A stretch of 7,098 nucleotides of DNA from a virus. Its lineage: Duplodnaviria > Heunggongvirae > Uroviricota > Caudoviricetes. The stretch lies in IMG/VR virus record IMGVR_UViG_2606217102_000007, one strand, 5' to 3'. This document shows, piece by piece, positions 1 to 6,394 of the stretch (positions are counted from its first letter, which is position 1; each line of letters starts with the position of its first letter). The position numbers and the translations under genes are program-made. Under the pieces are notes generated by a model. That model was not told the origin of the DNA, ran no database searches, and worked only from the letters and a program-made list of their open reading frames with translations.

Positions 1-329
1 CGGGCTGAAGACTGGCGCAGGGCGGATGGCAGTACCGGGTCATATTGCTCACCCAGCGTTTCCGCCATTTCTTCCTGAAGTGCGCTGATTCGCTCCTGTG
101 CTTCCTGTATCTGCCGTTCGGTTTTAGCGCGAAGTTTTTCTGAGCTTTTACCGAACTGCATGCGCTGCAGTTTCGCAACCAGCGCCTTCAGCCGGTTGAT
201 TTCGGAAGCATAAGCCGCCACCCGCTGTGAGAGCAGGCGGTTGTATTTCGCCATCTGGCGGATGGTGTCCTGTTGCGTCTGCAACAGTGCCCGCAGGCGG
301 GCATTCTCATGAGCAAGTGAGGTGTCCAT
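1..329 (-). CDS. tnpC: IS66-family transposase TnpC (orf3), N-terminal 110 codons only; continues past window start
   Basis: ATG at 329-327 on the minus strand; my translation reads MDTSLAHENARLRALLQTQQDTIRQMAKYNRLLSQRVAAYASEINRLKALVAKLQRMQFGKSSEKL..., a leucine-zipper-like N-terminus as in IS66 TnpC. Absent from the ORF track because there is no stop in the window. Starts 17 nt after the tnpB stop. Confidence 0.85.
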   Translation of the reverse strand, partial: MDTSLAHENARLRALLQTQQDTIRQMAKYNRLLSQRVAAYASEINRLKALVAKLQRMQFGKSSEKLRAKTERQIQEAQERISALQEEMAETLGEQYDPVLPSALRQSSA

Positions 330-348
330 ATCCTCACTTTACAACGGG

Positions 349-696
349 TTATATGCGGATGCCAGCGCGTTCCGTTCGTTTCGGGTGCTTCCAGTCGATG
401 CCTTCGAGAAGCATGGACAACTGAGCCGGAGTAAGGTGAACCTTTCCATCGCGGGTGACCGGCCAGACGAAGCGGCCCCGCTCCAGGCGTTTGGTGAAGA
501 GGCACAGTCCGTCACTGTCAGCCCACAGCACTTTTATCTGGTCACCCCGGCGTCCGCGGAAGATGAACAGATGCCCGGAGAACGGGTCATCCTTCAGGAC
601 GTTCTGAACTTTTGAGGCCAGGCCGTTAAAGCCATTTCGCATATCGGTGATACCGGCAACCAGCCAGATACGCGAACCGGCAGGGAGAGATATCAT
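349..696 (-). CDS. tnpB: IS66-family accessory protein TnpB (orf2), 115 aa
   Basis: ORF-track protein MISLPAGSRIWLVAGITDMRNGFNGLA...GHLFIFRGRRGDQIKVLWADSDGLCLFTKRLE matches the conserved IS66 Orf2 family by memory; its start codon overlaps the tnpA stop (ATGA). Confidence 0.9.
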   Translation of the reverse strand: MISLPAGSRIWLVAGITDMRNGFNGLASKVQNVLKDDPFSGHLFIFRGRRGDQIKVLWADSDGLCLFTKRLERGRFVWPVTRDGKVHLTPAQLSMLLEGIDWKHPKRTERAGIRI

Positions 697-1346
697 CAGT
701 GGCTGCTCCCTTTCATTTCGCGGATAAGTGTCTGTAATAACGCCGGTGTCAGTTCACCTTTCAGCCTGAGAGTTCCGGCCGGCAGAACCAGCTCGCAGCA
801 CAGACTGTCTGGCAGTGTATTTATCTGTTCAGGTATCTGCACTGGTGCCGGGATTTTATTATCCGGCTCCGGAGTTAACGTCACGGGAAGTAGCGATGTT
901 TCATGTTCGCCGGGCGGTTGCAGGCCACCGTTACGCCAGAGATGCCGCCAGTTAAAGAGCAGGTTATCGTTAATTCCATTCTCTCGAGCTATTTGTGCGA
1001 CACAGGCACCGGGTAAAAGAGTTTGCTGAACCAGTCTCCATTTAAACTCCGGTGAAAATCGGTTCCGGCGGGGTTTCTCTGCTTTCACAGGCTGAGTCAC
1101 GGTCGGGGCTGAAGGGTATCGCCCCGGGAAAAGAGCCCGGGCCAGTTGCCCGCAGGAATATTCACCGGAAAGAGGCCAGTCAGTGAATACCTGGTGAAAT
1201 CGCCTCACCAGAGAAAAAATGGCGGTTTTGCTGACACCAGTCTGCGCAGAAATGCGCGGGTACGACAGTGACTCGTCAAATCTCAGCTGTAGCACACGCA
1301 GGATCAATTCTGGATTATCTGCCAGTACCGCTTTTCGTGCATTCAT
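696..1346 (-). CDS. tnpA: IS66-family TnpA (orf1), 216 aa, helix-turn-helix protein
   Basis: First gene inside the IS terminus; contains the RRNRFSPEFKWRLVQQ...CVAQIARENGINDNLLFNWR segment typical of transposase Orf1/OrfA HTH proteins. The true start could be an alternative codon, since there is no internal Met. Confidence 0.75.
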   Translation of the reverse strand: MNARKAVLADNPELILRVLQLRFDESLSYPRISAQTGVSKTAIFSLVRRFHQVFTDWPLSGEYSCGQLARALFPGRYPSAPTVTQPVKAEKPRRNRFSPEFKWRLVQQTLLPGACVAQIARENGINDNLLFNWRHLWRNGGLQPPGEHETSLLPVTLTPEPDNKIPAPVQIPEQINTLPDSLCCELVLPAGTLRLKGELTPALLQTLIREMKGSSH

Positions 1347-1405
1347 CTTAAATGTCCTTTTACTGCGAAAATGGACATTAGTATCGGAAACAGGAAAGGG
1401 AGGCG

Positions 1406-1431
1406 AAAGACGGTTTAAATGATGCGCTTAC
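1406..1431. repeat. IS66-family terminal inverted repeat (outer end at 1431)
   Basis: Sequence ...gacggtttaaatgatgcgcttac; reverse complement begins GTAAGCG. The inner boundary is approximate because the partner repeat is outside the window. Confidence 0.6.
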
Positions 1432-2770
1432 CAGCCTCGGGAGTTAAATCTCCTTTATTTAGAACGTTTTTAAGGCGCGTTTGAGTTGCATGTGTTGCCA
1501 TTTTTGCATAATCAGCTTTTCCCGCTCTCCATGCTGAAGCATCTTTTGGGCTAAGTCCTTTCGCTATAGATTTACTAAGGCTATTGGTTAGCGAGTTGTA
1601 GACCCTGTCGACCATTGTTTGCGACATTGATGGCAGAACTGTACGATCGCCTTTTACGTCAATGCGGAACTGAGTTCTCAGCTTATCAAGTAACTCAAAG
1701 GCATCATCTCCATTTGTTATCTCCTGAATGGCATTCTTATAATCATTAAGCGCAGAAATGGTCTGGGTGTCAGAAACACCTTTAAGTTTCCCAAGTTCGT
1801 TTACTGCTCCGTCGATAGCTCTTATGGCGCCACTTGTATCAACTGGCTTTCCAACCATTCTTCCTGACAGGTTGTTTAGTTTTGACTTGGCTAACGATTT
1901 TTCCCTTGCAACGCCTGACTTTAGACTATCAACGACTACAGATGGATCGTAGTCGCCGTATTTTTCGGTGAAGCGATTAACAAGCTTGGTTCTAGCATCC
2001 TGCTGTGCGGCTCTCATTGGTCCAGTCCCAGCTATGACTCCTTCTGAGTAACCCTGCAGTTGATTGCCAAGTTTTGTTTTTGGAGGAACTACATCCGATG
2101 TCATAACTGGTACATCTGCCGCAGCGGCACGCTTGAGCAATTGCTGATCTGCTGGTGATATTTCGCCACGAACAGCAGTAATTCCACGCCCTATTCCCTT
2201 TGCTGCTGCGGAAAGAACCCCCTGAGCGGCAAGGTTAACTCCGGCATTTATGGCTGCATTTTGCGCGAAATCACCTTTCTGGTTTGCGGCCTCTGCCAGT
2301 GATCCAATAGCCATGCTTCCTGCCGTTCCAACTCCTGGAACTAAATACCCGCCAATTGTTTCTCCAGCTTGCGCGTAGGGGTCTGTCGGTCTGTCTACTG
2401 GACGATAAACATCATCCAATACTTTTGGCCCACCAAGCCCCTGACTGATTGCATTAATCAGACTTGCGCCACCCTGCAATACGTCAAATGGTATGTTTAC
2501 CAGACCGCGACCAGCCTGCTCTGCAATTTGCCCTGCACTTTGACCACCAGTGAGCCAATCGCCAGCTTGTTGCATCAATGATGGTTCTTCTTTCTGCTGC
2601 TGAGGTGGAGGGTATGCTGCATAAAACTGATCTCTTGCTTCAGCCCATTTGTCACCAGCCTTAGGGGCAACAACCTCATCAAAATATTGCGCTTGAGCCT
2701 GTGCTTTCTGTTCTTCAGTTAACGCCTGATACTGTGGAGAGGCGATAACATCTTTCCATGCTTTAGCCAT
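1415..2770 (-). CDS. Phage DNA-ejection (DNA transfer) protein, P22 gp16-like, with 3' end replaced by the IS insertion (native sequence 1432-2770; last codons and stop come from the IS repeat)
   Basis: 451-aa ORF whose final residues GKRII and stop are encoded inside the IS terminal repeat (stop = complement of 1415-1417). Third gene of a gp7/gp20/gp16-like cassette; P22 gp16 is about 609 aa, so roughly 150 C-terminal residues would be missing. Start overlaps the upstream stop as TAATG at 2768-2772. The family call rests on synteny, size and composition only. Confidence 0.55.
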   Translation of the reverse strand: MAKAWKDVIASPQYQALTEEQKAQAQAQYFDEVVAPKAGDKWAEARDQFYAAYPPPQQQKEEPSLMQQAGDWLTGGQSAGQIAEQAGRGLVNIPFDVLQGGASLINAISQGLGGPKVLDDVYRPVDRPTDPYAQAGETIGGYLVPGVGTAGSMAIGSLAEAANQKGDFAQNAAINAGVNLAAQGVLSAAAKGIGRGITAVRGEISPADQQLLKRAAAADVPVMTSDVVPPKTKLGNQLQGYSEGVIAGTGPMRAAQQDARTKLVNRFTEKYGDYDPSVVVDSLKSGVAREKSLAKSKLNNLSGRMVGKPVDTSGAIRAIDGAVNELGKLKGVSDTQTISALNDYKNAIQEITNGDDAFELLDKLRTQFRIDVKGDRTVLPSMSQTMVDRVYNSLTNSLSKSIAKGLSPKDASAWRAGKADYAKMATHATQTRLKNVLNKGDLTPEAGKRII

Positions 2771-4134
2771 TAATCACCCCATAGTGAAGAAAAGTTACTG
2801 CCGGCTGCTGGCTGTGATACCTGTGTAGGTTGAGATTGCTGCCGCTGAGATTTACCAACATTAACGTTATATTGTTGGTTGTAATTGTCGGTATATTGCT
2901 GAATGTCGCGCATTGATTGTTGCAGTGCTTCAGGGCTTGAGAAATCAACCTGTGGCATACCTTGAAAATACATCTTTGCTTCTGCAACGGTGTTGATACC
3001 GGATGCCCCCATGTCTCTGGCTGCTGCAATGCCCTGATTCTGCATCTTTCCTTGGATTCGCTGTGCAGCGTTGTATAGTTTCCTCTGATCACCACCAGAT
3101 GCACGGCTACGAATATCTGCACCAAGAGCAGGAGAACCTGAAGAGCCTGTAATGCCAGTCATGAAGCCAAGATCGTCAATTGATGCACCAGAAATTGCAT
3201 CAAGATCTTTCTTCATTGCGTAATTCTGCGCGCTTGCTGCCGATGTAGCCGGAGCGGCAATAGAGCCAGCAGGAACGCGAACCATATTCCCCTCGTTGTC
3301 GATACCTTCGTAGAACGCATTAGCCCCAGCGCCGTGAAGCTTCCCGCCTACCGTTACAGTTCTGCCATCTGCTAACTGAACTGTACGCTCATTATTCCCA
3401 ACCGACCCTTTCATTGATGCTCTCTGCATCGATAAATCCTGACCGCGCATCGTGATATTCTGACCGCGTGCTGTTAGCGCCTCTCCAGCCTTATTGCTGC
3501 GGATTGTCTCTGCCAGTCTGCCTCGGTCAATCTCACGACCAGCTATCTTGTCCTGAACAGCAAACGCCTTTTCTGGCCCAAGTGCACCGAGAGACATAGT
3601 AGTCAGCATGTGTGATAGCTGTTCTGGATTCTGGATACCTGTCTGAATCATCCAGTCAGCATTCGCACCCACGCGATTTAACCTGTCCTTGTTGTCAGTA
3701 ATGAATTTACTGTAGGCTTCCGGTCCCTGAGAAAGAGCGACGTTAGCCCTCATGGCTAAATCGCCCATATCGTTGCGTTGCTGCTCATTAAGACCGGAAA
3801 ACGCCTGTTGTGCCTGTGCAACAAACGCTGGATTTTCCTGGGCAAACTTAAATAGTCCCGATGGATCACCAGAAGCCCATGCATCAGCGTGAACCTTATT
3901 GAACGCCCTAATAGCTTTCTGTTGCTGTTCCTGATTGTAAATATCAGCAACTCCAGCCAGACCACGTAACGCGGTCAGACCAACGTTATTTGCACCTGAT
4001 CGAGCCAATTCATTGTTTTCGCGGATCAGACCAAGCGTTGCGTTAATGTCGCTTGCCTTTGGCGCATTCTCATTTTGCGTACCGATGCCAGCCAGAAAAC
4101 CACCAGAATTAATACCCTGTTGCCACGTAGCCAT
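2770..4134 (-). CDS. Phage DNA-ejection (DNA transfer) protein, P22 gp20-like, 454 aa
   Basis: Long intact ORF between the gp7-like and gp16-like genes; the size matches P22 gp20 (about 471 aa). The complement of 4139-4146 gives an AAGGGG ribosome-binding site upstream of the ATG. Gly/Ala/Gln-rich with a Q/N-rich C-terminus. Assignment is by gene order and size, not by sequence search. Confidence 0.55.
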
Positions 4135-4143
4135 GATTACCCC

Positions 4144-4545
4144 TTAAAACAACGAGCCAAGCAGACCAAGACCGCCACCAACAGCGGCACCAATACCAGT
4201 ACCAATACCAGGAACAATGCTGCCAAGTTTTGCTCCAGCAATTGCTCCAGAGGCAGCCCCGCCTATTGCAGATTGAAGGCCGGAAGGTCTATTAGCGTTT
4301 GCCGCCGCCAGTGCCGCGCTTTGCTGTGAAATCTGGCTCATGTTGTTGGCATATGTTTGCCCGGCATTTGCCTGCCCCTGAAGCGCGCCAAGACCAATAT
4401 TTGCCAGATTCTGGTAGTTGTTCATTTGTCCAGATAGCCATTGCTGACCAAGCGTTGGTGCGATTGTTGCTAACTGATTACTGGTTGAGGTGGAACCCAA
4501 TCCACCTGTTGCTTCCGCTGCCGCCAGACTCTGATATTCGCTGAC
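4144..4545 (-). pseudogene. 5'-truncated P22 gp7-like ejection protein gene (C-terminal ~130 codons native; the ORF-track N-terminal ~50 codons are read-through into unrelated DNA)
   Basis: The ORF-track protein (4144-4695) opens with an aberrant W/C/H-rich stretch (MAWWMASSSALWRVPLNGISRLGSNPITFPSSTIVLTSRSFHHCHGTGC), then switches to A/G/Q/N-rich sequence ending in a Gly-zipper-like hydrophobic tail. Those first ~150 nt are antisense to a plus-strand exonuclease-like frame. Confidence 0.5.
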
Positions 4546-4732
4546 AGGGCAGCCAGTTCCATGGCAGTGGTGGAATGACCGCGACGTAAGAACAATCGTC
4601 GAGCTTGGAAAGGTAATAGGATTCGACCCTAAGCGAGATATGCCATTCAAAGGAACTCGCCACAACGCGCTTGATGATGCCATCCACCAAGCCAAATACG
4701 TTTCAGCAATCTGGAAAAAATTAGCTAAATAA
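4535..4732 (+). pseudogene. 3' fragment of a DEDDh-family 3'-5' exonuclease gene (final ~65 codons including the Exo III-like motif)
   Basis: Plus frame open from 4535 (in-frame TGA at 4532-4534) to TAA at 4730-4732: ...WNDRDVRTIVELGKVIGFDPKRDMPFKGTRHNALDDAIHQAKYVSAIWKKLAK. H-N-A-L-D-D-A resembles the Exo III motif (H-x-A-x-x-D-A) of DnaQ-like exonucleases. No N-terminal Exo I/II region is present, and the next gene's RBS and ATG follow 16 nt later. Confidence 0.45.
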
Positions 4733-4737
4733 TCAAC

Positions 4738-4742
4738 AGGAG
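4738..4742 (+). promoter_or_regulatory. Ribosome-binding site (AGGAG) for the 4749 CDS
   Basis: caacAGGAGaaaaacATG, 6-nt spacer to the ATG at 4749. Confidence 0.6.
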
Positions 4743-4748
4743 AAAAAC

Positions 4749-5042
4749 ATGCCAGCGCCTTTGTATGGTGCGGATGACCCGCGCCGCTGTTCCGGCAAAT
4801 CAGTATCGGAGGTGCTGGATAAATTCAGAAAAAACTACGACCTGATAATGTCGCTACCGCAGGAAACGAAAAAGGAAAAGGAATTTCGCCACTGTATATG
4901 GCTTGCAGAGAAAGAAGAACGCGAGCGAATTTACCAGACATCAATCCGACCATTCCGTAAAGCCACATATACCCACTTCCCTGAAATTGACCCGCGCCTG
5001 CGTAATTACCGCTCACGCTATGGCGCTATCAGTAATGACTGA
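4749..5042 (+). CDS. Hypothetical prophage early-region protein, 97 aa, highly charged
   Basis: ATG preceded by an AGGAG RBS; the stop at 5040-5042 lies inside the next gene's RBS (tGAGGAa), indicating operon organisation. No family recognised. Confidence 0.6.
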
Positions 5043-5052
5043 GGAATTTACC

Positions 5053-5217
5053 ATGAGAGGACTTGCATACAATCCCGGCATTCTTCCGGCAGAAATGATT
5101 ATTCGCCAACGCGTAAAGCCAATGCCATCGAGAGAGGAATTGCTTAAGAGAAATTCTTTTCCATCAGTGAATCAAAACAAATATCTGAATGCAATGTGGC
5201 GGAGTTGGAAGAAATGA
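5053..5217 (+). CDS. Hypothetical small basic protein, 54 aa ([54 protein letters not shown])
   Basis: ATG at 5053 with a GAGGAA RBS 6 nt upstream. The ORF track extends the same frame back to 4903, but that would overlap the 97-aa gene; the internal start with an RBS is preferred. Its stop overlaps the next start as ATGA. Confidence 0.4.
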
Positions 5218-5645
5218 AACAAATGTCACTAATTGAGATGGATGGATTTCTGAAAGGTAAATGCATCCCACGAGATTTAAAGGTTAACGAAACAAACGCT
5301 GAATATCTGGTGCGTAAATTTGCTGAAGCGGAGGCCAAGTGCGCGGCGCTGGCAGCGGAGAATGCGGGGATGAAGTCTGGCGCTATGGACGAAATCAAGG
5401 TTATCAACCGTGGAGGGCAGGCATATTGTGTAAAAGATGGAGTGCAAGTTAATCCCATGTATGCAAGAGGGTGGAATGACTATCGCGCAAAGTCTATGCA
5501 ATCAGACACCCCAGCCACCGATGCTTTTCTGGCTGAAGTACGAGCGCAAGGCGTGGAGATGTTTGCGGAGTGTGCATACACACTTGAACATCATGATCAC
5601 GCAGTAGCTTTTGCCGCCGAGCTGCGCAAAGGAGGCAACCAGTGA
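5214..5645 (+). CDS. Hypothetical prophage protein, 143 aa from ATG 5214 (ORF track gives a GTG start at 5196); contains four Cys and an EHHDH cluster
   Basis: ATGA overlap with the upstream stop; GGAG 9 nt upstream of ATG 5214. Its stop (5643-5645) overlaps the next gene's GTG start as GTGA. No family confidently recognised. Confidence 0.6.
5632..5637 (+). promoter_or_regulatory. Ribosome-binding site (AGGAGG) for the 5642 CDS
   Basis: aaAGGAGGcaaccaGTG; strong Shine-Dalgarno sequence 4 nt upstream of the GTG start. Confidence 0.6.
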
Positions 5646-6394
5646 GCAAGATTGACTATCAGGCACTGCGTGAGGCGGCAGAAAAAGCAACGTGTGGCGA
5701 GTGGTCGCTCGAATATGGAGAGGGCCGATTTGATGGTGATGATGCACTAATTCATCGCGAGGCTGCTGGATATATTCCCATTTGCAGAATTGAAGGAGCG
5801 CATCCTGAAAGCGGTTTCGATGAAGATTTCCAAATGGAACAGCAGGCCAATGCTGAATTCATCGCCGCAGCCAATCCGGCTACCGTCTTGGCGCTGCTGG
5901 ATGAGCTGGAAAGAAACCAGCAATACATAAAACGCCTCGACCAGGAGAACGAGGATATTGCGCTAACGGTAGGGAAGCTGCGCGTTGAGCTGGAAGGCAA
6001 AGACAGCAAAATAGCCAATCTTACCGCCGAACGCGATGCTCTTCGTGAAGGTGAGATGGGCGACGCTAGGCATAGCAACACACGGGCCGCAGCTGATATC
6101 TACTTCCAACTGGTCGAGGAGTGCGAAATTCCTGCTGGCGGATCTCTGGTCGAGTACGTTGACGATATGCGCGAGAAGCTGGAAGCCGCAGAGAAGCGCA
6201 TTGCAGAGTTAGAAAGTGGTTCTCAGGCACAAAAGTTAGTTGAAGCAATCATTGTTGCGATAGAAAACGAACAGGAAAGGCTTTTTGATGAAGATTACCT
6301 AATGGATTCGAAAGAATGCATTGACGTAATTCGTGAAGAAGTAAAGCGATGGAATGATTCCCGTGCCGCTGGCATTCGCATCAAAGGAGAGTGA
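5642..6394 (+). CDS. Ead/Ea22-like prophage early protein, 250 aa, acidic with a central coiled coil
   Basis: GTG start with a strong AGGAGG RBS. The N-terminus [21 protein letters not shown] and the AANPATVLALLDELERNQQYIKRLDQENEDIALTVGKLRVELEGKDSKIANLTAERDALREGEM heptad-like region resemble Ead/Ea22-family proteins of lambdoid prophages, as recalled from memory and not searched. Confidence 0.5.
   Translation: MSKIDYQALREAAEKATCGEWSLEYGEGRFDGDDALIHREAAGYIPICRIEGAHPESGFDEDFQMEQQANAEFIAAANPATVLALLDELERNQQYIKRLDQENEDIALTVGKLRVELEGKDSKIANLTAERDALREGEMGDARHSNTRAAADIYFQLVEECEIPAGGSLVEYVDDMREKLEAAEKRIAELESGSQAQKLVEAIIVAIENEQERLFDEDYLMDSKECIDVIREEVKRWNDSRAAGIRIKGE

What the first reader, a model, noticed from the sequence alone, without database searches (positions are those of the whole stretch)
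4535..4748. Probable deletion junction fusing the structural module to the early-left accessory operon
The same ~160 nt give (minus strand) an aberrant W/C/H-rich N-terminal extension on the gp7-like ORF and (plus strand) the C-terminal end of a DEDDh exonuclease-like frame that flows into a coupled operon. Neither gene is complete: the gp7-like gene lacks its 5' end and the exonuclease lacks its N-terminal Exo I/II region. In P22-like genomes the ejection genes and the ea/exonuclease region sit at opposite ends of the prophage, so this juxtaposition implies loss of the whole central region (immunity, replication, lysis and most morphogenesis genes).
Basis: inference. Interest (0 to 1): 0.5.

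Follow-up and report, generated by a model that had tools for sequence, protein, structure and literature searches.

The report
Deletion scar in decayed P22-like prophage
This is the scar of a roughly 25-kb deletion that removed the middle of a P22-like prophage in E. coli, joining half of a DNA-ejection gene to the tail end of an exonuclease gene; it is real but is ordinary prophage decay.

Summary
Database matches to the window split at 4536|4537. Sequence to the left (through 4536) is the 3' part of a P22 gp7 ejection gene on the minus strand. Sequence to the right (from 4535) is the last 65 codons of a 182-codon Rv2179c-like 3'-5' exonuclease on the plus strand, followed by abc2, DUF2737, a hypothetical gene and an Ead/Ea22 gene. 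The two parents share only 2 bp (TA), and there is no filler DNA and no IS at the join.

E. coli E189 carries an intact P22-like prophage at the same chromosomal site (dacD-sbcB) in the same orientation. Measured against it, both flanks are collinear and about 25.3 kb is missing: most morphogenesis genes, lysis, Q, nin, replication, cII/cro/cI, ral, sieB, kil, the Rad52-family recombinase gene and ssb. The W/C/H-rich N-terminus of the 183-codon minus-strand ORF is the antisense reading of the exonuclease remnant.

The identical junction occurs in 8 complete E. coli records and in the 5 fetched metagenome or read-set contigs, so it is not an assembly artefact. RefSeq annotation already marks both genes as N-terminally truncated pseudogenes. 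An IS679 insertion in gp16, found only in this window, shows decay is continuing. Interest is low.

The parts
4535..4537 (.). Deletion junction. The left parent matches through 4536 and the right parent from 4535. The 2-bp overlap is TA at 4535-4536, with no filler bases.
   Evidence: The 80-mer centred on the join is exact in AST19 and in contigs L009-L013.
4144..4536 (-). 3' remnant of a P22 gp7-type DNA-ejection gene (codons 102-231 of 231). The first 101 codons are deleted.
   Evidence: alignment to JEP4 gp7. (PF25688 positions 101-230 of 230, E = 4.8e-64). PGAP pseudogene 'missing N-terminus' in AST19.
4537..4695 (-). Spurious N-terminal extension of the chimeric ORF: 53 codons from TTG at 4695, or 49 from ATG at 4683. 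It is the antisense reading of the exonuclease remnant, and no clear Shine-Dalgarno sequence lies upstream.
   Evidence: Gene callers do call the ATG-start 179-aa chimera in public assemblies.
4535..4732 (+). 3' remnant of an Rv2179c-like (DEDDh-type) 3'-5' exonuclease gene: codons 118-182 of 182 plus the stop. Only the H-x4-D motif is retained. There is no usable start codon, and an in-frame TGA sits at 4532-4534.
   Evidence: PGAP pseudogene 'missing N-terminus'.
4749..5042 (+). Intact abc2 (anti-RecBCD protein 2, 97 aa), now cut off from the PL promoter.
   Evidence: PF11043 1-97 of 97, E = 1.7e-63.
5053..5217 (+). Intact DUF2737 gene (54 aa).
5214..5645 (+). Hypothetical early-left gene (143 aa from ATG 5214; ATGA overlap with DUF2737). 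No Pfam match.
5642..6394 (+). Ead/Ea22-like gene (250 aa), with a GTGA overlap with the preceding gene.
2770..4134 (-). Intact gp20-type ejection gene (454 aa), now cut off from the late promoter.
   Evidence: PF16928 Inj_translocase. (98.9% identity to phage JEP4 over 1432-4536).
1432..2770 (-). gp16-type ejection gene truncated by an IS insertion. About 446 of 621 codons remain. The ORF runs 17 nt into the IS, ending with the stop at 1415-1417.
1..1431 (-). End of an IS679 (IS66-family) element: tnpA 696-1346, tnpB 349-696, and the start of the transposase gene. The terminal GTAAGCG lies at 1431.
   Evidence: 100% identity to IS679 copies on plasmids. It is absent at this position from every other carrier of the junction.

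Best explanation
The window comes from a defective P22-like (Lederbergvirus-type) prophage integrated between dacD and sbcB in an E. coli lineage. An illegitimate, essentially homology-independent deletion of about 25 kb joined codon 102 of the gp7 ejection gene to codon 118 of the early-left 3'-5' exonuclease gene. It removed every gene needed for immunity (cI/cro/cII), replication, late-gene activation (Q), lysis and head assembly. It also removed kil, sieB, ral, the Rad52-family recombinase gene and ssb.

The junction has no function of its own. It leaves two pseudogenes lying tail to tail on opposite strands. It also creates an artefactual chimeric ORF whose N-terminus is the antisense reading of the exonuclease remnant.

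Shown here: the position of the join, the collinear orientation of both flanks, the extent of the loss, the two truncations, and the recurrence of the junction in independent assemblies.

Inferred: (i) the loss was a single event rather than nested deletions; (ii) the surviving gp20/gp16 and abc2-ea genes are now largely silent, because PL and the Q-dependent late promoter are both gone; (iii) the deletion persisted because it removed lethal functions. The IS679 insertion in gp16 is a later, separate step in the decay.
For: - Hits split at 4536/4535, and no phage record spans the join. The overlap is 2 bp with no filler.
- Both flanks map in ascending order onto the intact same-site prophage of E189, at L008:17545 and L008:42888, which are 25.3 kb apart.
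- In AST19 the remnant lies between dacD and sbcB. It has tailspike, immI genes, gp16, gp20 and truncated gp7 on one side, and truncated exonuclease, abc2, ea genes, xis and int on the other. An 11-bp repeat, TTTGGTACACA, sits in the equivalent position at both prophage ends in AST19 and E189. The repeats are about 15.9 kb apart in AST19 and about 40.9 kb apart in E189.
- Pfam matches only the C-terminal parts of both family profiles. The exonuclease frame is closed by a stop codon at the join.
- The identical junction is present in 8 complete RefSeq records (4 strain names) and in the 5 fetched metagenome or read-set contigs.
- IS679 is absent from all other carriers of the junction.
- No sigma-70-like promoter was found in 3900-5300.
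Against: - No intact prophage carrying both a JEP4-like structural arm (98.9%) and an E189-like early-left arm (98%) was identified. The exact ancestor is therefore inferred from two different mosaic relatives. The E189 structural arm is only 70-77% identical to the window.
- A single junction cannot distinguish one 25-kb deletion from successive nested deletions. The parallel case in isolateD did go through at least two steps.
- Silence of the orphaned genes is inferred only from a simple consensus promoter scan.
Confidence: 0.93

Rival explanations
1. Assembly chimera: two prophage fragments were misjoined by the assembler.
For: Prophage regions are repeat-rich and often misassembled. No record in the collection contains the whole window including the IS.
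Against: The 80-mer junction is exact in 8 complete genome records and in 5 contigs from independent metagenome or read-set assemblies. In AST19 and L009 the remnant is flanked correctly by dacD and sbcB.
Confidence: 0.01
2. The deletion occurred between two different P22-like prophages, either in tandem at the sbcB site or after co-infection. It ran from gp7 of a JEP4-like phage to the exonuclease gene of an E189-like phage, rather than lying within one prophage.
For: The two arms have different closest relatives. The left arm is 98.9% identical to JEP4, which has no such exonuclease. The right arm is 98% identical to E189, whose structural arm is only 70-77% identical to the window.
Against: Lambdoid and P22-like genomes are routinely mosaic, so different nearest relatives for different modules are expected. 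A single prophage with both flanks collinear is the simpler explanation. No trace of a second att site or a second int is seen in AST19.
Confidence: 0.04
3. IS-mediated or homologous (RecA-dependent) deletion between repeated sequences.
For: An IS679 lies 3.1 kb away in this window, and IS3-family insertions occur in the same remnant in E100341 and AST205.
Against: There is no IS sequence at the junction, and the IS679 is absent from every other carrier of the identical junction. The parents share only 2 bp at the breakpoints. For random joins, P(2 bp or more) = 0.16.
Confidence: 0.02
4. The chimeric 179/183-codon ORF is a genuine new gene: a gp7 C-terminal domain with a novel N-terminus.
For: The ORF is open, and automatic gene callers call it in public assemblies with a P22_gp7 Pfam hit.
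Against: Its N-terminus is simply the reverse complement of a conserved exonuclease coding sequence. No clear Shine-Dalgarno sequence lies upstream and no promoter-like site was found. Its natural Q-dependent late promoter is deleted. All carriers are at least 99.4% identical over the shared sequence, so there is no conservation signal. PGAP treats it as a pseudogene.
Confidence: 0.02

Closest known systems
Cryptic or defective lambdoid prophages of E. coli K-12 formed by internal deletions (KplE1/CPS-53 at argW, Rac, DLP12, Qin, e14)
   Same: This is a temperate prophage that kept its att-proximal ends (int and xis on one side, tail and late genes on the other) and lost the central lethal and replicative functions. 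It is then eroded further by IS insertions. The review PMC6379469 describes grounded prophages as highly prone to deletions, insertions and inversions. My own knowledge: KplE1 keeps intS and torI and remains excisable.
   Different: This remnant derives from a P22-like podovirus, sits at dacD-sbcB, and is confined to a very closely related set of genomes (99.4-100% identity). It is therefore a recent scar with two cleanly identifiable half-genes, not an old, heavily eroded island.
Intact P22-like phages and prophages (phage JEP4, genus Lederbergvirus; the E. coli E189 prophage at sbcB; P22, HK620, Sf6)
   Same: The gene order matches: gp7-gp20-gp16, then the immI region and tailspike, and an early-left operon of exonuclease, abc2, DUF2737, ea genes and xis. 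The window is 98.9% identical to JEP4 over 1432-4536 and 98.3% identical to E189 over 4535-5339.
   Different: About 25 kb between gp7 codon 101 and exonuclease codon 118 is absent, so no virion, replication, lysis or cI immunity functions remain.
Parallel decay of a P22-like prophage at argW in E. coli isolateD and six related records
   Same: The structural arm (here a truncated tail-needle gene) is fused to the truncated 3' end of the same exonuclease gene just upstream of abc2. The right breakpoint lies 77 bp from the one in this window.
   Different: It is at a different chromosomal site and has a different left breakpoint. A 121-bp scrap of the Q antiterminator gene is retained between the two arms, which shows at least two successive deletions.

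Membership tests
Deletion junction within a prophage (cryptic-prophage scar) | The two flanks map to distant positions of an intact relative, in the same orientation. | tested here: met
   Window 3968-4536 maps to L008:16986-17545 and window 4535-5339 maps to L008:42888-43692. Both are ascending and lie 25.3 kb apart.
Deletion junction within a prophage (cryptic-prophage scar) | Both interrupted genes are truncated exactly at the join. | tested here: met
   gp7 keeps profile positions 101-230 of 230. The exonuclease keeps positions 118-177 of 177.
Deletion junction within a prophage (cryptic-prophage scar) | The remnant occupies the same host site as an intact relative, with both outer ends present. 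| tested here: met
   AST19 and E189 both have the element between dacD and sbcB, with the same xis protein accession and a shared 11-bp repeat at both ends. This lies outside the window itself.
Deletion junction within a prophage (cryptic-prophage scar) | The junction is reproducible in independent assemblies. | tested here: met
   8 complete records. Exact 80-mer in 5 further contigs.
P22 gp7 ejection protein (Pfam PF25688) as a functional member | Full-length match to the 230-position profile. | tested here: not met
   Only positions 101-230 are matched. Residues 1-53 of the ORF are unrelated.
Rv2179c-like / DEDDh 3'-5' exonuclease (Pfam PF16473) as a functional member | All catalytic motifs present: Exo I (DxE), Exo II (xxFD) and Exo III (H-x4-D). 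| tested here: not met
   The intact E189 protein has DLE at 7-9, GASFD at 106-110 and HNALDD at 160-165. The window retains only residues 118-182, so it has Exo III alone.
IS-mediated adjacent deletion | An IS end lies at the junction. | tested here: not met
   There is no extra sequence between the two parental matches. The IS679 lies 3.1 kb away and is absent in the other carriers.
Homology-dependent (RecA or short-repeat) deletion | A direct repeat of appreciable length is present at both parental breakpoints. | tested here: not met
   Only TA is shared. 5 of the 10 bases up to and including the join match between the parents, and chance P(2 bp or more) = 0.16.
Excision-competent cryptic prophage (KplE1-like) | Intact int, xis and both att sites, with demonstrated excision. 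| not testable with these tools
   int (392 aa) and an xis-like HTH gene are annotated as intact, and a candidate 11-bp core is present at both ends in AST19. Excision itself needs an experiment.

The most novel reading that the evidence does not exclude
The 3' end of the exonuclease gene, just upstream of abc2, may be a preferred or selected deletion endpoint. At least four independent truncations in E. coli genomes have partners ral, gp7, a Q scrap with tail needle, and the DnaB-type helicase. All keep at least the last 103 bp of the exonuclease gene, and those examined also keep the abc2 operon. One possible reason is that a signal needed to express abc2 and the ea genes lies there. In that case these remnants would be domesticated, possibly still excisable, anti-RecBCD/ea modules rather than neutral debris.
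Probability: 0.05. Interest if true: 0.35.

Novelty: new member of a known kind. Interest (0 to 1): 0.1.

Why it matters
The main value is for annotation. The 179/183-codon ORF that gene callers report as a gp7-family protein is a chimera and should be treated as a pseudogene, as should the 65-codon exonuclease fragment. The element cannot produce phage, replicate or lyse the cell.

It is also a clean, datable example of prophage decay. There is one precise 25-kb illegitimate deletion, followed by independent IS679 or IS3-family insertions and frameshifts in different descendants. That could serve as a lineage marker. It adds nothing new in principle to what is known about prophage degradation.

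Tried and rejected
(1) I looked up the TTG-start 183-aa chimeric protein in public assemblies and found nothing on record. The ATG-start 179-aa version was found on 6 contigs.

(2) I tested whether the exonuclease 3' end is a deletion hotspot. The exonuclease query shows several independent truncations, but that query can only detect endpoints lying inside the exonuclease gene. The control with abc2+DUF2737 gave partial hits that mostly start or stop at gene boundaries (query positions 293/304 and 318/321). Those are mosaic module exchanges, so the comparison is uninformative and no hotspot claim is made.

(3) Promoter scans of 3900-5300 and of the whole window found fewer consensus sites than shuffled controls. 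There is no evidence for a new promoter created at the join.

(4) I searched for extended microhomology or filler DNA at the join and found none beyond TA.

(5) A literature search for sbcB + P22-like + prophage returned no papers.

(6) The first Pfam call failed because of a wrong DUF2737 frame. It was repeated with correct coordinates.

Full report
**Layout of the window.** ORF listing and Pfam scans give the following map.
- 1-1431: the end of an IS66-family element. It is 100% identical to IS679 copies on many plasmids, and its GTAAGCG terminus lies at 1431.
- Minus strand: a gp16-type ejection gene cut by that IS (1432-2770), an intact gp20-type gene (2770-4134, PF16928), and an ORF at 4144-4695.
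- Plus strand: abc2 (4749-5042, PF11043, full length), DUF2737 (5053-5217), a hypothetical gene (5214-5645) and an Ead/Ea22 gene (5642-6394).

**Checking the observation.** Megablast of 4100-5100 against 50,697 phage records gave two disjoint sets of hits. The gp7/gp20 hits cover query 1-437, ending at window 4536. The exonuclease/abc2/DUF2737 hits start at query 436, which is window 4535. No phage record covers 80% or more of the query.

The same split appears in E. coli genomes, except for 8 records that match the whole query at 100%. In register against phage JEP4 on the left and phage mEp235 on the right, the join reads ...GCCAGACTCTGATA|TTCGCTGACAGG.... Only the dinucleotide TA (4535-4536) is common to both parents, and there are no inserted bases. 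For random joins, the chance of 2 bp or more of microhomology is 0.16. The join therefore carries no signature of homology-driven recombination.

**Protein-level confirmation.**
- Minus-strand ORF: residues 54-183 align to residues 102-231 of JEP4 gp7 (231 aa). Pfam P22_gp7 matches only profile positions 101-230 of 230. They have no gp7 counterpart and contain 3 W, 2 C and 3 H.
- Plus strand: 4535-4732 encodes 65 residues identical to residues 118-182 of the 182-aa exonuclease of E. coli E189. Pfam Rv2179c-like matches positions 118-177 of 177.
- That plus-strand frame is closed by TGA at 4532-4534, directly at the join. The only internal start codon would give a 30-aa peptide.
- In the intact exonuclease, the acidic motifs DLE (7-9) and GASFD (106-110) lie in the lost part. 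Only HNALDD (160-165) survives.
- The W/C/H-rich extension is simply the antisense reading of the conserved exonuclease coding sequence.
There is a 16-nt spacer with AGGAG before abc2, a 10-nt spacer before DUF2737, and then ATGA and GTGA overlaps.

**What was lost.** E. coli E189 carries an essentially intact P22-like prophage between dacD and sbcB. Strain AST19 has the same junction as the window and carries the remnant at the same site and in the same orientation.

BLAST of the window against the E189 locus aligns window 3968-4536 to L008:16986-17545 and window 4535-5339 to L008:42888-43692. Both alignments are ascending, so the event is a simple collinear deletion and not an inversion. The E189 interval between the two breakpoints is about 25.3 kb. 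It contains:
- the 5' part of gp7, the DUF2824 gene in the gp14 position, the tail needle, gp10 and gp4;
- coat, scaffold, portal and both terminase subunits;
- the lysis cassette, two tRNAs, Q and the nin region;
- the helicase and replication genes, cII, cro and the cI-type repressor;
- ral, sieB, kil, a Rad52-family recombinase, ssb, and the first 117 codons of the exonuclease.

An 11-bp repeat, TTTGGTACACA, lies in the equivalent position at both prophage ends in AST19 and in E189. The repeats are about 15.9 kb apart in AST19 and about 40.9 kb apart in E189, which is consistent with the computed loss.

**Is it real?**
- The junction is present at 100% identity in 8 complete RefSeq records: AST19, AST205, E100341 and five EC0026B derivatives.
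- The ATG-start 179-aa chimeric ORF is on record on 6 contigs from metagenome and read-set assemblies.
- The 80-mer centred on the join is exact in all five contigs that were fetched.
- One of those contigs (L009) again shows sbcB, int, the early-left genes through abc2, then gp7', gp20 and gp16.
- PGAP already annotates both half-genes in AST19 as "incomplete; missing N-terminus".

An assembly artefact is therefore excluded.

**Later decay.** The IS679 in gp16 is present only in this window. All other carriers of the junction continue with intact gp16 sequence at that point. AST205 and E100341 have IS3-family insertions in the same remnant, and contig L011 has a split gp16. Carriers are 99.4-100% identical over the shared sequence. 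The deletion is therefore recent and is shared by a group of near-identical carriers, probably by descent.

**Mechanism and consequences.** The best-supported reading is one illegitimate, microhomology-independent deletion within a single prophage. Nested deletions cannot be excluded, because a single junction records only the last event.

The deletion removed PL, the Q-dependent late promoter and Q itself. The remaining ejection genes and the abc2-ea operon are thus cut off from their native promoters. A consensus scan found no sigma-70-like site in 3900-5300, and fewer sites in the whole window than in shuffled controls. Their silence is an inference, not a demonstration.

Removing kil, lysis and replication functions is the classic route by which a prophage becomes harmless to its host. 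[quoted passage not shown]

**Rivals.**
- Assembly chimera: refuted by the recurrence of the junction.
- IS-mediated or repeat-mediated deletion: not supported, because there is no IS and no repeat at the join.
- Deletion between two different prophages: cannot be excluded. The left arm is closest to JEP4 (98.9%) and the right arm to E189 (98%). However, module mosaicism explains this more simply.
- The chimeric ORF as a new gene: there is no positive evidence for this.

**Side observations.** A search with the intact exonuclease gene found it in 173 genomes, 21 of which hold only a partial copy. The spread sample shows four different 5'-truncation points, each fused to a different partner:

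| Example | Query start | Fused partner |
|---|---|---|
| CT02 | 254 | ral |
| This lineage | 352 | gp7 |
| isolateD group | 431 | Q scrap and tail needle |
| N1083 | 447 | DnaB-type helicase |

In isolateD, whose prophage is at argW, a truncated tail-needle gene is joined to a 121-bp scrap of the Q gene and then to the exonuclease 3' end. That arrangement shows at least two deletions.

This recurrence shows that central deletions ending in the early-left operon are common. The query design can only detect endpoints inside the exonuclease gene, though. The abc2 control was dominated by mosaic gene-boundary breaks. No hotspot is claimed.

**Verdict.** The feature is an ordinary prophage-decay scar. 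It is a new instance of a well-known kind, and automatic RefSeq annotation already flags it as two pseudogenes. Interest is low.

Noticed in passing
window 1-1431 (junction with gp16 at 1431|1432): An IS679 (IS66-family) element is inserted in the gp16-type ejection gene, leaving about 446 of 621 codons. No other carrier of the deletion junction has it, so it is a later, strain-specific step in the decay. The target-site duplication could not be checked because the other IS end lies outside the window.
   Followed up: partly
L005 (E. coli isolateD NZ_CP135488) 12846-13655: This is an independent, parallel decay of a different P22-like prophage at argW. A truncated tail-needle gene is joined to a 121-bp fragment of the Q antiterminator gene, then to the last ~119 bp of the same exonuclease gene and abc2. 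The right breakpoint lies 77 bp from the one in the window. Seven records share this structure.
   Followed up: partly
E. coli CT02 NZ_CP081698 (~1453219-1453514) and N1083 NZ_CP189444 (~1439955-1440057); hits H144 and H150: These are two further independent 5' truncations of the same exonuclease gene. One is fused next to a ral gene and the other next to a DnaB-like helicase gene. In all, 21 of 173 genomes with this gene hold only a partial copy. Whether this reflects a hotspot or only ascertainment bias is unresolved.
   Followed up: partly
L001 (AST19) 4900 and 20811; L008 (E189) 6742 and 47625: An 11-bp direct repeat, TTTGGTACACA, lies at both ends of the prophage in both the remnant and the intact relative. 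It is a candidate att core. With intact int and xis-like genes, the remnant might still be excisable.
   Followed up: partly
L009 10046-10687; L001 10898-11539 (outside the window, beyond gp16): A 213-aa HTH_3 plus Peptidase_S24 (LexA/cI-type) repressor-like gene sits in the immI region between gp16 and the antirepressor genes. It survives the deletion even though the main cI-type repressor was lost.
   Followed up: no
window 5214-5645: This 143-aa early-left gene is translationally coupled to DUF2737 and to the Ead/Ea22 gene. It has no Pfam match and its function is unknown.
   Followed up: no
L001 19429-20779 (AST19); L008 46243-47593 (E189): The integrase gene is oriented convergently with the early-left operon and overlaps the 3' end of the xis-like HTH gene by about 20 bp. 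In P22, int and xis are co-directional.
   Followed up: no
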